From: Dictyostelium discoideum
Taxonomy: Eukaryota
Assembly (NCBI GenBank): GCA_000004695.1
Contig: CM000154.2
Span: 2,880,001 to 2,944,000 of the forward strand
Reading direction: 5' to 3'
DNA length: 64,000 nucleotides
In this document: piece by piece, positions 201-59,459 of the stretch
Position numbering within the stretch: the stretch's first letter is position 1
Layout of the letters: each line of letters begins with the position of its first letter
Translations under genes and position numbers: made by a program
Notes under the pieces: generated by a model
The model's database searches: none
Told to the model about the DNA's origin: nothing
The model's input: the letters and a program-made list of their open reading frames with translations, nothing else

Positions 201-220
201 TCCCACACAGAATAACGTCT
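201..220 (+). promoter_or_regulatory. Conserved upstream element TCCCACA(CA)GAATAA(C/T)GTCT. Copies at 201..220, 2934..2953 and 6111..6130, each upstream of an actin gene.
   Basis: Near-identical G/C-containing 20-mer sitting in otherwise A/T-only upstream sequence, before three different actin genes. Confidence 0.4.
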
Positions 221-319
221 ATTCGTGTTTTTCTATTTTTATTTTTATTTTTTTTTTAATCAAAATTAAAATTATTTTTAAATCAATTTTAATTCGTAAT
301 TTCAAGATATAAGGAATAT

Positions 320-329
320 CCATATAAGG
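320..329 (+). promoter_or_regulatory. CArG box CCATATAAGG (SRF/MADS-box consensus CC(A/T)6GG) 19 bp upstream of the divergent-actin ATG. Identical copies occur at 3063..3072 and 1962..1971.
   Basis: Exact CC(A/T)6GG match seen three times, each time in the duplicated actin upstream regions. Confidence 0.5.
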
Positions 330-347
330 AAATATTGTAAAAATAAA

Positions 348-1466
348 ATGGAAATTAATGTTCAAGCTATAGTTATTGATAATGGTTCTGATACGTGTAA
401 AGCTGGTTTTGTTGGTGAAGAAGCTCCACATTCAGAGTTCCCATCGATTGTTGGTATTGATCAAAATGATTCATATGTTGGTAATGAAGCTCAATCAAAA
501 AGAGGTATTCTAACTCTTAAATATCCAATTGAACGTGGTATTATTACCAATTGGGATGATATGGAAAAAATCTGGCATCATGCTTTTTATAATGAACTTG
601 GTGTTGCTCCAGAGGAAAATATAGTAGTTTTATCTGAATCACCATTAAATCCAGAAGAAAATAGAGAGAAAATGGCTCAAATCATGTTTGAAACTTTCAA
701 AACTCCTGCAATATATGTTGAAAACCAAGCTGTATTTTCGATTTATAATTCTGGTCGTATGACTGGTATCGTTCTGGATTCAGGTGATAGTGCTTCTCAT
801 GTTGTACCAGTTTATGAAGGTCTTGCATTGCCACATGCGACTTCAAGTTTAGGTTTTGCTGGTTGTGATCTTACTGATCAAATGAGTTTATTATTAAATG
901 ATCTTGGTTACAACCTTGAAAGAGAAATAGTTAGAGATATTAAAGAGAAACTATCATATGTTTCATCAGATTTTTCATGGGAAATTAACGATCCATCAAC
1001 ATTAGGGAAATCATATGAACTACCAGACGGTCAAGTTATTACAATTGATAAAGAACTTTTTGCTTGCCCAGAGGTACTTTTCCTCCCATATGCATTTTTT
1101 GGTACGAACCTTGATGGTATTGACAAAGCAATCTATAATTCAATCATGAAGTGTAATGATGATATTCATAATGATTTATATGGTAATGTTGTATTATCAG
1201 GTGGTTCAACTATGTTCCCAGGTATTGAATATCGTATGTATAAAGGATTAACACAACTTGCACCATCAACAACGGAAATTGTAATTAATGCAGAACCAGA
1301 TCGTAAGAACTCTGTATGGATTGGTGGTTCAATTTTAGGCTTAGTTCCAAATTTCCAAGAATTGTGTATTGACAAAGAAGATTATGATGAATATGGTCCA
1401 TCGTTTGTGAACTTAGTAAAAAGTTTTAGAGAACAAAATCACCAAAATTATTATGGTGAAAATTAA
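348..1466 (+). CDS. Divergent actin (372 aa). It lacks the DNase-I-binding-loop segment [14 protein letters not shown] and carries a G->D change in the first phosphate-binding loop.
   Basis: Full-length ORF alignable to actin throughout (DNGSxxCKAGF, [36 protein letters not shown]). Residues 38-51 of canonical actin are replaced by IDQND. Confidence 0.85.
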
Positions 1467-1467
1467 C

Positions 1468-1509
<42 letters not shown>

Positions 1510-1628
1510 CAATTCCAGTTTTCTTCAAATTTTATTCTTAAAAATTATTTTTAAAATTATATTATTAATAAAAATGTTATAAATTTATGGGAAAATATTA
1601 TATTAATTTTTTTTGTTTTGGTAATAAT

Positions 1629-1680
<52 letters not shown>

Positions 1681-1810
1681 TTTTTTTTTTTTTTTTTTTT
1701 TTTTGTATAAATAATTATTTTTTAAATGAAAAAAAAAAATAAAAAAACTTTAAAAAATAAACAATAATTTATATATTCAAATAATAATCAAAATAATAAA
1801 AAAAAAAAAA

Positions 1811-2459
1811 ATGGAAAGTGAAGATGTTCAAGCTTTATTTTTTTTTTTTTTTCTTAGTTTATCAATTATCTACTATTTTTAAATATATAAACTGAGATGT
1901 ATATTAATAAAATAATTTATTTTGCCAGAATGTAATAATTATATCTCACTAATAAAAATATCCATATAAGGAGAATGTAATTATATAAAATTTTGTTTTT
2001 AAGTTTTTTTTTTTTTTTAAGCAAAATATTAATTTTTCAAATTACAACATTATGACAACCAAAAGTGATTTCTATGGGGCTGACCCCTTAGATTTTTCAA
2101 ATCTAGAAGCACTTTTCCGACCATCATTATTGGCTATGGGCTGTGGTGGTATTCATGAAACAATCTATAATTCAATCATGAAATGTGATTATGATATTCG
2201 TAAATATTTATTTGGTAGTGTGGTATTATCAGGTGGTTCAACTATGTTTCCAGGTATTGCAGATCGTATGAATAAAGAATTAACTGCACTTGCACCATCA
2301 ACAATGAAAATTAAAATTATTGCACCACCAGAACGTAAATACTCTGTATGGATTGGTGGTTCAATTTTAGCCTCACTTTCAAATTGTCAAGAAATGTGGA
2401 TTTCAAAAGAAGAATATGACGAATCTGGTCCATCAATTATTCACAGAAAATGTTTCTAA
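1811..2459 (+). pseudogene. Actin pseudogene with internal deletion. First 10 codons (MESEDVQAL) sit at 1811..1840, about 250 bp of unrelated sequence follows, then the C-terminal ~120 codons at ~2096..2459.
   Basis: 1801..1843 is identical to the start of the intact actin at 4652. ORF 2052..2459 matches the actin C-terminus ([14 protein letters not shown]...HRKCF*). The 3' flank matches the flank of the 4652 actin. About 240 codons are missing. Confidence 0.75.
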
Positions 2460-3080
2460 AAAAAATAGTTAAATTAATATAATAAAATAAAAATTATAAA
2501 AACAAAAAAAAAAAAACAAAAAAAAAAATTAAAAAAAAAAAAAAAATCATTTTTGAAACAAAAAATAGAATTAGTTTCTTGTCGATAAAAGAAATAACCA
2601 CTCATATAAATTTTTTTCACCAATGACATAATTTTGGCTCTATTTACGTAATATACCATTAAAGCATTCGCTGAAAAAAAAAAAGGTTAAAAAATAAAAC
2701 AAAAAAAAAAAAAAAAACAAAAAAACTAAAAGTCTAAAAGTATGGTTGGTTGAAAAAAAAAAATTTTGAGCAGATGATCATGATCTTTTTTTTTTGGTGG
2801 TCATTTTTTAAAAATAAATAAAAAAAAAAAATAGAGAAAAAAAGTATGGTTTTTATTTAATCACATAAATAGTTGTTGCATCATTGTTTTTTGTTTTTCT
2901 ATTTTTATTTTTATATTTTTTTTTTTTTTTTATTCCCACACAGAATAACGTCTATTCGTGTTTTTCTATTTCTATTTTTATTTTTTTTAAAATCAAAATT
3001 AAAATTATTTTTAAATCAATTTTAATTCGTAATTTCAAGATATAAGGAATATCCATATAAGGAAATATTGTAAAAATAAA

Positions 3081-4142
3081 ATGGAAATTAATGTTCAAGC
3101 TATAGTTATTGATAATGGTTCTGATACGTGTAAAGCTGGTTTTGTTGGTGAAGAAGCTCCACGTTCAGAGTTCCCATCGATTGTTGGTATTGATCAAAAT
3201 GATAAAGATTCATATGTTGGTAATGAAGCTCAATCAAAAAGAGGTATTCTAACTCTTAAATATCCAATTGAACGTGGTATTATTACCAATTGGGATGATA
3301 TGGAAAAAATCTGGCATCATGCTTTTTATAATGAACTTGGTGTTGCTCCAGAGGAAAATATAGTAGTTTTATCTGAATCACCATTAAATCCAGAAGAAAA
3401 TAGAGAGAAAATGGCTCAAATCATGTTTGAAACTTTCAAAACTCCTGCAATATATGTTGAAAACCAAGCTGTATTTTCGATTTATAATTCTGGTCGTATG
3501 ACTGGTATCGTTCTGGATTCAGGTGATAGTGCTTCTCATGTTGTACCAGTTTATGAAGGTCTTGCATTGCCACTTGCGACTTCAAGTTTAGGTTTTGCTG
3601 GTTGTGATCTTACTGATCAAATGAGTTTATTATTAAATGATCTTGGTTACAACCTTGAAAGAGAAATAGTTAGAGATATTAAAGAGAAACTATCATATGT
3701 TTCATCAGATTTTTTATGGGAAATTGACGATCCATCATTAGAGAAATCATATGAACTACCAGACGGTCAAGTTATTACAATTGGTAAAGAACTTTTAGCT
3801 TGCTCAGAGGGACTTTTCCTCCCATATGTATTTTTTGGTACGAACCTTGATGGTATTGACAAAGCAATCTATAATTCAATCATGAAATGTGATGTTGATA
3901 TTCATAATGATTTATATGGTAATGTTGTATTATCAGGTGGTTCAACTATGTTCCCAGGTATTGAATATCGTATGTATAAAGAATTAACACAACTTGCACC
4001 ATCAACAACGGAAATTGTAATTAATGCACCACCAGAACGTAAGAACTCTGTATGGATTGGTGGTTCAATTTTAGGCTTAGTTCCAAATTTCCCAGAATTG
4101 TGTTTTGACAAAGAAGATTATGATGAATATGGTCGGTTGTGA
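3081..4142 (+). CDS. Divergent actin, copy 2 (353 aa). The C-terminus is truncated by an indel/frameshift near 4130 relative to copy 1. Possibly a decaying paralog.
   Basis: About 97% identical to 348..1466. It retains KD ([12 protein letters not shown]) and ends ...DEYGRL* where copy 1 continues [11 protein letters not shown]... Confidence 0.8.
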
Positions 4143-4639: not shown

Positions 4640-5782
<1,143 letters not shown>

Positions 5783-6805: not shown

Positions 6806-7948
6806 ATGGAAAGAGAAGAAGTTCAAGCTATAGTTATTGATAATGGTTCTGATATGTGTAAAGCTGGTTTTGCTGGTGATGATGCTCCACGTGCAGTTTT
6901 CCAATCAATTGTTGGTCGCCCAAGATATACCGGTGTTATGGATGTTATGGGTCAAAAGGATTCATATATTGGTGATGAGGCTCATTCGAGAAAAGGTTTT
7001 TTAACTCTTAAATATCCAATTGAACGTGGTATTGTTACCAATTGGGATGATATGGAAGAAATCTGGCATCATACTTTTTATAATGAACTTGGTGTTGCTC
7101 CAGAGGAACATCCAGTTCTCTTAACTGAACAACCATTAAATCCAAAAAAAAATAGAGAGAAAATGACTCAAATCATGTTTGAAACTTTCAATACTCCTGC
7201 AATGTATGTTGCCATTCAAGCTGTATTATCACTTTATTCATCTGGTCGTACAACTGGTATCGTTATGGATTCAGGTGATGGTGTTTCTCATGCCGTATCG
7301 ATTTATGAAGGTCATGCATTACCACATGCAATTTTACGTTTGGATTTAGCAGGTCGTGATCTTTCTGATTACATGATGAAAATCTTAACTAAACGTGGTT
7401 ACTCATTTACAACAACTGCTGAAAAAGAAATAATTAAAGATATTAAAGAGAAATTATCATATGTAGCATTGGATTTTGATGCTGAGATGCTAACTGCAGC
7501 CTCGTCAACAACATTAGAGAAATCATATGAATTACCAGACGGTAAAGTTATTACAATTGGTAATGAACGTTTCCGTTGTCCAGAGGCACTTTTTCAACCA
7601 TCATTATTGGCTATGGAATCTGCTGGTATTCATGAAACAATCTATAATTCAATCATGAAATGTGATGTTGATATTCGTAGATATTTATTTGGTAATGTTA
7701 TATTATCAGGTGGTTCGACAATGTTCCCAGGTATTGCAGATCGTATGAATAAAGAATTAACTGCACTTGCACCATCAACAATGAAAATTAAAATTATTGC
7801 ACCACCAGAACGTAAATACTCTGTATGGGTTGGTGGTTCAATTTTAGCCTCACTTTCGAGTTTCCAAGAAATGTGGATTTCAAAAGAAGAATATAATGAA
7901 TCTGGTCCATCAATTGTTCACAGAAAATGTTCTAATTATTTAAAATAA
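6806..7948 (+). CDS. Actin variant (380 aa, starts MEREEVQ, C-terminal extension HRKCSNYLK)
   Basis: Full-length actin ORF, about 90% identical to major actin. Preceded at 6040..6135 by the same upstream module as the divergent actins. Confidence 0.9.

Positions 7949-58325: not shown

Positions 58326-59459
<1,134 letters not shown>

What the first reader, a model, noticed from the sequence alone, without database searches (positions are those of the whole stretch)
320..3072. Perfect CArG boxes (CCATATAAGG) in the duplicated actin promoters
CC(A/T)6GG is the SRF (MADS-box) recognition consensus, and Dictyostelium has SRF homologs. The motif occurs 19 bp upstream of both divergent-actin ATGs (320..329 and 3063..3072) and once more at 1962..1971 ahead of the pseudogene fragment. 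That pattern suggests SRF-type regulation of this particular actin sub-family.
Basis: partly seen in the sequence, partly recalled or inferred. Interest (0 to 1): 0.5.

Follow-up and report, generated by a model that had tools for sequence, protein, structure and literature searches.

The report
Duplicated CArG-like box near divergent actins
A perfect SRF-type "CArG" sequence really sits just before two odd Dictyostelium actin genes. Its three copies come from recent DNA duplication, not independent recurrence, so SRF control is a plausible but untested idea.

Summary
CCATATAAGG is real, at 320-329, 1962-1971 and 3053-3062. The window is D. discoideum AX4 chr5:2,880,001-2,944,000, and the genes are act27, act36_ps and act28.

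The three copies are not independent. The act27 and act28 upstream regions are 97% identical because of a recent AX4-only tandem duplication (dS 0.009). The third copy lies in a piece of the act24-act25 spacer that was pasted into a broken actin gene.

Only two old sites exist. Both carry the same 15-mer, ATATCCATATAAGGA, with no other flank similarity. Both are unchanged in two sibling genomes, although the bases next to them changed. The estimated chance of that under neutrality is about 0.002-0.04.

CC(A/T)6GG in general occurs at exactly the frequency base composition predicts: 8 in 233 kb against 7.99 expected. It is absent upstream of ten other actin genes.

The literature is mixed. A CArG-type motif is enriched in open chromatin of multicellular stages. 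However, known SrfA- and SrfB-dependent promoters lack the consensus, act27 has no ESTs, and act28 is listed as open in the unicellular stage.

Verdict: a probably constrained short element. A MADS-box site is the best candidate (about 0.4), and it remains unproven. Interest is modest.

The parts
316..330 (+). 15-mer ATATCCATATAAGGA holding CArG box 1 (CCATATAAGG, 320-329), 18 nt before the act27 ATG
   Evidence: unchanged in the orthologous promoters L003:9969-9983 and L004:9972-9986
306..336 (+). Imperfect 15/16-bp tandem repeat GATATAAGGAATATC | CATATAAGGAAATATT. The two C's of the CArG box straddle the repeat junction. These two TATAAG sequences are the only TATA-like sequences in the 150 nt read before the ATG.
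   Evidence: read; the first unit decays in L003 (…TAAGAA…) and L004 (…TAGGGT…), while the second stays intact
348..1466 (+). act27 (putative actin-27, 372 aa)
   Evidence: translation; it matches the Act27 peptide strings in Joseph 2008
1811..1837 (+). First 9 codons (MESEDVQAL) of a destroyed act22-type actin gene, identical to 4652-4678
1855..2099 (+). Piece of the act24-act25 intergenic spacer pasted into the destroyed actin gene, with an internal deletion of about 115 bp. It carries CArG box 2.
   Evidence: alignment with L001:7500-8170 and L004:7383-8057
1958..1972 (+). 15-mer with CArG box 2 (1962-1971)
   Evidence: its 5' flank is identical to the spacer copy at L001:7702
2052..2459 (+). 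act36_ps ORF (135 aa). Actin homology starts only near 2100, and the ATG lies in the pasted spacer.
2738..3080 (+). Second copy of the act27-type upstream region (97% identical to 1-347)
3049..3063 (+). 15-mer with CArG box 3 (3053-3062), 18 nt before the act28 ATG
3081..4142 (+). act28 (putative actin-28, DDB_G0289511, 353 aa, C-terminally shortened)

Best explanation
Shown: the three boxes descend from two old sites that share one 15-nt element, ATATCCATATAAGGA.

Site A lies 18 nt before the start codon of the act27-type gene. Site B lies just outside the window, 188 nt after the act24 stop codon and 462 nt before the act25 ATG. Both sites predate the split of three D. discoideum-complex genomes.

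In the AX4 lineage a 2.7-kb tandem duplication turned site A into the act27 and act28 copies. A fragment of the site-B spacer was pasted into a broken actin gene, act36_ps, and gave the third copy.

Inferred: the 15-mer is identical in two contexts that share nothing else, and it stayed unchanged while neighbouring bases mutated. It is therefore most likely a short protein-binding site. Its sequence is a perfect, quasi-palindromic CC(A/T)6GG, so the best candidate is a dimer of an SRF-type MADS-box factor (SrfA or SrfB). Such a dimer would modulate transcription of act27/act28 and possibly act25.

The descent part is near certain. The MADS-binding part is a hypothesis.
For: Descent:
- 97% identity over 350 bp between the two promoters.
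- dS between act27 and act28 is 0.009, against 0.10-0.17 to the orthologues.
- L003 and L004 each hold a single act27-type gene.
- The act36_ps insert aligns to the act24-act25 spacer.

Constraint:
- The 21-mer ATATCCATATAAGGAAATATT is shared by the AX4 promoter and spacer copies, while the flanks align no better than shuffled sequence.
- The 15-mer is invariant in all 7 instances, with changes directly beside it.
- Only 8% (L004) and 28% (L003) of comparable G/C-containing 15-mers are perfectly conserved in orthologous spacers. That gives a joint chance of about 0.002, or 0.0045-0.04 from a branch-length model.
- The act27 family keeps open reading frames against a neutral expectation of P<=2.5e-4, so it is probably a live gene that needs a promoter.

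MADS candidate:
- The match to CC(A/T)6GG is exact.
- SrfB is 72.8% identical to human SRF over the MADS+SAM region.
- A CArG-type motif is enriched in ATAC-accessible regions of multicellular stages and in genes up-regulated there (PMC8094536).
Against: - No binding data exist.
- Promoters of 24 SrfA-dependent genes and of SrfB-dependent genes contain no consensus CArG. Microarrays of srfB- cells showed no change in actin expression (PMC3819988).
- act27 has zero ESTs.
- act28 is listed among genes 'open' in the unicellular stage, not the multicellular one.
- The box is only 18 nt from the ATG. By the Dictyostelium poly-T/TSS rule it probably lies inside the 5' UTR, which is unusual for a CArG box.
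- CC(A/T)6GG occurs at exactly the composition-expected rate, so most instances in this genome must be chance.
- The sibling genomes are close (dS 0.10-0.17). Neighbouring non-repetitive blocks are also conserved, so the footprint is suggestive rather than decisive.
Confidence: 0.4

Rival explanations
1. Neutral passenger. The 15-mer has no function. It arose once by chance in AT-rich spacer DNA, was copied to a second place by a short-patch repair or rearrangement event in this recombination-prone cluster, and was then multiplied by segmental duplication. Its conservation reflects only the short divergence time.
For: - CC(A/T)6GG occurs at exactly the composition-expected frequency (8 against 7.99 in 233 kb).
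- At that rate about 1 in 60 genes would carry one within 500 bp upstream by chance.
- The cluster is visibly rearranged, with the act36_ps chimera and in-cluster gains and losses between genomes.
- dS to the sibling genomes is only 0.10-0.17.
- act27 has no ESTs.
- dN/dS is about 1 in the act27 family.
Against: - The joint chance that all orthologous copies stay perfect is about 0.002-0.04.
- The substitutions and indels sit immediately beside the 15-mer in both contexts.
- An identical 21-mer with no flank homology needs a special copying event.
- ORF retention argues that the genes are in use.
Confidence: 0.3
2. Core-promoter or transcript-end signal rather than an activator site. In the act27/28 copies the TATAAGG acts as a weak TATA box, or the block is part of the 5' leader. 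In the spacer copy the block belongs to the act24 3'-end formation region, between AATAAA and the poly-A tract that marks transcript ends in this genome.
For: - The two TATAAG sequences of the tandem repeat are the only TATA-like sequences in the 150 nt read before the ATG.
- The whole 85-bp proximal block, not only the box, is conserved.
- In the spacer the box lies between AATAAA (L001:7690-7695) and an 18-nt poly-A run starting at 7719. That is the geometry Chang et al. describe for transcript ends.
Against: - The Dictyostelium TATA consensus is TATAAA(A/T)(A/T), centred about 29 bp before the TSS and followed by poly-T.
- Here the invariant copy is TATAAGGA, is not followed by poly-T, and lies 25 nt before the ATG, so the predicted TSS falls at or after the start codon.
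- The upstream TATA-like copy is the one that decays in L003 and L004.
- Two different roles, promoter and 3' end, for one identical 15-mer is not parsimonious.
Confidence: 0.2
3. Binding site for a different, unidentified Dictyostelium DNA-binding protein that happens to overlap the CArG consensus.
For: The conserved block is 15-16 nt (ATATCCATATAAGGA[A]), longer than the 10-nt CArG core. The published SrfA and SrfB target promoters lack CArG, and the authors themselves raise the possibility that the Dictyostelium SRF site has changed.
Against: I know of no described Dictyostelium element that resembles it (from memory, not tested). A MADS dimer also contacts bases flanking the 10-nt core, so a 15-16 nt footprint is compatible with SRF.
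Confidence: 0.1

Closest known systems
Animal CArG box / serum response element (CC(A/T)6GG), bound by SRF in actin and immediate-early gene promoters
   Same: Exact match to the consensus, a quasi-palindromic A/T core, and a location next to actin-family genes. From memory, the same 10-mer (as CCTTATATGG on the other strand) is among the Egr-1 SREs. SRF-type MADS proteins exist in the organism.
   Different: There is a single box only 18 nt from the ATG, probably inside the 5' UTR. No binding or SRF-dependence data exist. The genes are barely expressed, fast-evolving actin paralogues, not the bulk actin genes, and the bulk actin genes lack the box.
CArG-type MADS motif (CCATATATGG) enriched in ATAC-seq peaks of multicellular stages in D. 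discoideum (Wang et al. 2021, PMC8094536)
   Same: Same organism and the same motif class, with one A/T difference in the core. This is the only genome-scale hint that such boxes are used in Dictyostelium.
   Different: That is a statistical enrichment of a library motif, not a list of validated sites. act28 appears in that paper's 'open in unicellular' list. The differential-peak table held here (Table S1) is truncated and returned no chr5 entry for the coordinates searched.
Candidate SRF sites noted in the act15, myoA and mlcR promoters (Galardi-Castilla et al. 2008, PMC3819988)
   Same: The same kind of claim: a sequence-only CArG-like site near cytoskeletal genes of D. discoideum.
   Different: Those sites were said to be under investigation, and I found no follow-up. 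The same paper reports no consensus CArG in any SrfA- or SrfB-dependent promoter.
Dictyostelium TATA box TATAAA(A/T)(A/T) with downstream poly-T (Kimmel & Firtel 1983; Chang et al. 2012, PMC3371697)
   Same: The box contains TATAAG and lies in the promoter-proximal region.
   Different: It does not fit the consensus, has no poly-T after it, and its distance to the ATG is too short for a TSS about 29 bp downstream.
Yeast MCM1 P-box (TTTCCTAATTAGGAAA; recalled from memory)
   Same: A CC-W6-GG core with a GGAAA right flank, as in ...TAAGGAAAT here. SrfB is 71.6% identical to MCM1 in the MADS+SAM region.
   Different: The left half does not match, and no cofactor sites are evident. This is a resemblance only.

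Membership tests
CArG box / SRF-type MADS binding site | Sequence CC(A/T)6GG | tested here: met
   CCATATAAGG at 320, 1962 and 3053
CArG box / SRF-type MADS binding site | Recurs independently near co-regulated genes, or is enriched over background | tested here: not met
   The window copies reduce to two old sites. There is none within 600 bp upstream of 6 Act8-type actins. There is none upstream of act30_ps, act24, act22 or act18. Background frequency equals the composition expectation.
CArG box / SRF-type MADS binding site | Organism encodes an SRF-type MADS factor with a conserved DNA-binding domain | tested here: met
   Literature check only. SrfA and SrfB exist. SrfB MADS+SAM is 86.4% identical to SrfA and 72.8% identical to human SRF. 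The DNA-contact residues were not inspected.
CArG box / SRF-type MADS binding site | Conserved across species beyond the neutral expectation | tested here: inconclusive
   The 15-mer is perfect in all orthologous copies, with an estimated P of about 0.002-0.04. Only three close genomes are available (dS 0.10-0.17), and neighbouring blocks are also conserved. No orthologues were found outside the D. discoideum complex.
CArG box / SRF-type MADS binding site | Physically bound by the SRF-type factor (EMSA, ChIP) | not testable with these tools
   No binding data were found in the papers searched.
CArG box / SRF-type MADS binding site | Expression of the adjacent gene depends on the factor | not testable with these tools
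   The only indirect evidence is negative: no actin expression changes on srfB- microarrays. act27 and act28 were not mentioned in any paper searched except Joseph 2008.
CArG box / SRF-type MADS binding site | Lies in a promoter or enhancer, upstream of or near the TSS | tested here: inconclusive
   It lies 18 nt from the ATG. The TSS is unknown. The poly-T rule predicts a TSS near window position 259, which would put the box at about +60 in the leader. That prediction is an inference.
Dictyostelium TATA box | TATAAA(A/T)(A/T) on the sense strand | tested here: not met
   The sequence is TATAAGGA. No TATAAA(A/T)(A/T) occurs in the 150 nt before the ATG.
Dictyostelium TATA box | About 29 bp upstream of the TSS and embedded in or followed by a poly-T tract | tested here: not met
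   No poly-T follows the box, and the invariant copy is 25 nt before the ATG. The TSS itself is unmeasured.
Segmental-duplication copies (repeat by descent) | Extended flanking homology between copies | tested here: met
   Copies 320 and 3053: 97% identity over 350 bp. Copy 1962 and L001:7702: they align over more than 200 bp. Between the two classes there is no flank homology, so they are two separate old sites.

The most novel reading that the evidence does not exclude
The 15-16-nt element ATATCCATATAAGGA(A) is a genuine SrfA/SrfB response element. It would be the first defined direct target site of a Dictyostelium SRF-type factor. It would drive stage-specific expression of a lineage-restricted, positively selected actin sub-family (act27/28, perhaps act25). 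That would extend the SRF-actin regulatory link from animals to Amoebozoa.
Probability: 0.3. Interest if true: 0.55.

Novelty: new member of a known kind. Interest (0 to 1): 0.3.

Why it matters
In animals SRF is regarded as the master regulator of actin and contractile genes. Whether that link predates animals is open. Dictyostelium has SRF homologues whose mutants show cytoskeletal defects, but no direct binding site has been defined, and known dependent promoters lack the consensus. A validated CArG box beside actin genes would supply the missing direct target and an easy assay. As it stands, this is one candidate site that duplication made look like three.

Tried and rejected
- I looked for hidden homology between the promoter and spacer contexts by local alignment of 150-nt flanks against dinucleotide shuffles. 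Nothing exceeded chance.
- I looked for more orthologues for phylogenetic footprinting, with a single-sequence search and a profile search. Only act28 and two D. discoideum-complex proteins were found.
- I tried to read chromatin accessibility at the boxes from the ATAC tables of Wang et al. 2021. The stored differential-peak table is truncated and returned no chr5 entry for the coordinates searched. Only a gene-list mention of act28 was found.
- I searched the literature for act27/act28 expression. Only Joseph 2008 mentions them.
- The paper on SrfA-dependent genes, PMC387645, is not held.
- Rfam and tRNA scans of the window were empty, so the conserved blocks are not known RNAs.
- I considered a TATA-box reading and rejected it as the main explanation on consensus and spacing.
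- I considered a MEF2-type site, CTA(A/T)4TAG (consensus). The sequence does not fit it.
- I did not scan the metagenome or prokaryote collections for the 15-mer. They do not hold Dictyostelium genomes, and chance hits to an AT-rich 15-mer would dominate.

Full report
**1. What is in the sequence**

CCATATAAGG occurs three times in the window, all on the + strand: 320-329, 1962-1971 and 3053-3062. The first and third copies each lie 18 nt before an ATG, at 348 and 3081.

The act1 gene sits at 58326-59456 (-) in the window and at chr5:2,938,326-2,939,456 in Joseph et al. 2008. That places the window at D. discoideum AX4 chr5:2,880,001-2,944,000. Peptide strings in the same paper identify the following genes:
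- 348-1466 is act27.
- 3081-4142 is act28.
- 2052-2459 is the 135-aa pseudogene act36_ps.
- 4652-5782 and 6806-7948 are act22-like and act18-like genes.

**2. The copies are not independent**

The 350 bp upstream of act27 and of act28 are 97% identical. The coding regions differ at dS 0.009.

Two sibling genomes each have a single act27-type gene. These are GCA_054859385.1 (locus L003) and GCA_054859205.1, 'D. cf. discoideum' (locus L004). The act27/act28 pair is therefore a very recent AX4-lineage tandem duplication of about 2.7 kb, and boxes 1 and 3 are one event.

Ten kb of sequence upstream of the window (L001) shows a fourth copy at L001:7702. It lies 188 nt after the act24 stop codon and 462 nt before the act25 ATG.

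Box 2 at 1962 lies in a stretch of about 245 nt (1855-2099). This stretch is a copy of the act24-act25 spacer with an internal deletion of about 115 bp. It sits between the first nine codons of a destroyed actin gene (1811-1837) and the C-terminal actin fragment. Box 2 is thus a pasted spacer fragment, not a promoter of the pseudogene.

**3. Two old sites share one element**

The promoter site and the spacer site share the 15-mer ATATCCATATAAGGA in all seven instances. The AX4 promoter and AX4 spacer copies share a 21-mer. Beyond that, 150-nt flanks align no better than shuffled sequence.

Both sites are present and unchanged in L004, and the promoter site is also unchanged in L003. In each context the substitutions and indels begin right beside the 15-mer.

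In the promoter the box straddles the junction of an imperfect 15/16-bp tandem repeat, GATATAAGGAATATC | CATATAAGGAAATATT. The first unit decays in the sibling genomes, while the second stays intact.

**4. Is it more than chance?**

As a motif class, no. CC(A/T)6GG occurs 7 times in the window against 5.0 expected. In 233 kb of non-redundant background from the three genomes it occurs 8 times against 7.99 expected from base composition.

No such box lies within 600 bp upstream of six Act8-type actin genes. None lies upstream of act30_ps, act24, act22-like or act18-like.

As a conserved element, possibly yes. Neutral divergence is small: dS is about 0.10 to L003 and 0.12-0.18 to L004. Even so, only 8% (L004) and 28% (L003) of G/C-containing 15-mers are perfectly conserved in orthologous spacers. 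That gives a joint chance of about 0.002. A branch-length model gives 0.0045-0.04.

Two caveats apply. Neighbouring non-repetitive blocks are conserved too. And no orthologues exist outside the D. discoideum complex to extend the test.

**5. What it might do**

*MADS/SRF site.* Evidence for:
- The sequence fits the consensus exactly.
- SrfA and SrfB exist and are close to SRF and MCM1 in the MADS+SAM region.
- A CArG-type motif is reported enriched in accessible chromatin of multicellular stages and in genes induced there.

Evidence against:
- The laboratory that made the srfA- and srfB- strains found no consensus CArG in 24 SrfA-dependent promoters or in SrfB-dependent promoters. It found no change in actin expression, and it suggested that the Dictyostelium site may have diverged.
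- act27 has no ESTs.
- act28 is listed as 'open' in the unicellular stage.

*Position relative to the transcript.* In Dictyostelium the TSS lies about 2 bp after a sense-strand poly-T tract. That rule points to a TSS near position 259 in AX4, and after a 29-T run in L004. The box would then sit about 60 nt into the 5' leader. This is an inference.

*TATA reading.* This is weak. The invariant copy is TATAAGGA, which differs from the TATAAA(A/T)(A/T) consensus. It lacks a following poly-T and is only 25 nt from the ATG.

*Spacer copy.* It lies between AATAAA and an 18-nt poly-A run, which is the geometry of a transcript end. A 3'-end role for that copy cannot be excluded.

**6. Verdict**

The 'pattern' is an artefact of duplication.

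What remains is one short element in two unrelated contexts that appears constrained. An SRF-type MADS site is the best single candidate (about 0.4). The alternatives are a neutral passenger (about 0.3), a core-promoter, leader or 3'-end signal (about 0.2), and another factor (about 0.1).

It is a new candidate member of a known kind of element, of modest interest until binding or expression data exist.

**7. Side finding**

The act27 family evolves with dN/dS of 1.1-1.4, and 3.2 between the paralogues. By comparison dN/dS is 0.25-0.31 for act18 and 0 for act1. Yet all four ORFs are intact, and the simulated neutral chance of that is no more than 2.5e-4. This looks like a functional actin paralogue under diversifying selection, restricted to the D. 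discoideum complex.

Noticed in passing
window 348-1466 and 3081-4142; L003:10001-11092; L004:10001-11116: The act27/act28 family evolves very fast at the protein level. Amino-acid identity to the orthologues is 71-76% while dS is only 0.10-0.17. dN/dS is 1.1-1.4, and 3.2 between act27 and act28. Yet all ORFs stay open, with a neutral chance of no more than 2.5e-4. This suggests positive or diversifying selection on a lineage-restricted actin. No orthologue was found outside the D. discoideum complex.
   Followed up: partly
window 1811-2459: act36_ps is a chimera. It consists of nine intact codons of an act22-type gene, a T-run, about 245 nt copied from the act24-act25 spacer (with an internal deletion), and then the last ~120 codons of an actin. 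The annotated ATG at 2052 lies in the spacer-derived part.
   Followed up: yes
window 201-208 and 2934-2941; L003 near 9853; L004 near 9860: TCCCACAC lies about 145 nt before the act27/act28 ATG and is conserved as (T)CCCACA in both sibling genomes. From memory, it resembles the Dictyostelium upstream sequence element of small-RNA genes, (A/T)CCCA(C/T)AA, but does not match it exactly. The Rfam scan found no RNA nearby.
   Followed up: partly
L001:7885-7960 (act24-act25 spacer) and window 2035-2099; L003 upstream of 15445: A strongly conserved block, AAATTACAACATTATGACAACCAAAAGTGATTTCTATGGGGCTGACCCCTTAGATTTTTCAG, recurs in several spacers of the cluster. In L003 the related copy reads TTCTACTAACACCTTAGATTTTTCAG, which looks like a branch point plus 3' splice site. 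This may be a remnant or sign of a 5'-UTR intron in act25-type genes. No convincing 5' splice site was seen.
   Followed up: no
L005, L006, L008, L010 at about 10001 minus 150-100 (upstream of Act8-type actin genes): Conventional Act8-type actin promoters carry (A/T)TGGGA(T/A) elements and a canonical TATAAATA plus poly-T, but no CArG box. The divergent and conventional actins therefore have unrelated upstream regions.
   Followed up: no
L001:4259-9321, L003:8126-16487, L004:3003-17429: The gene content of the chr5 actin cluster differs among the three genomes. L003 lacks the act24/act25 pair. L003 and L004 have an extra actin after act18. AX4 alone has act28 and act36_ps. act24 and act25 also show relaxed constraint, with dN/dS of 0.85 and 0.65.
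   Followed up: partly
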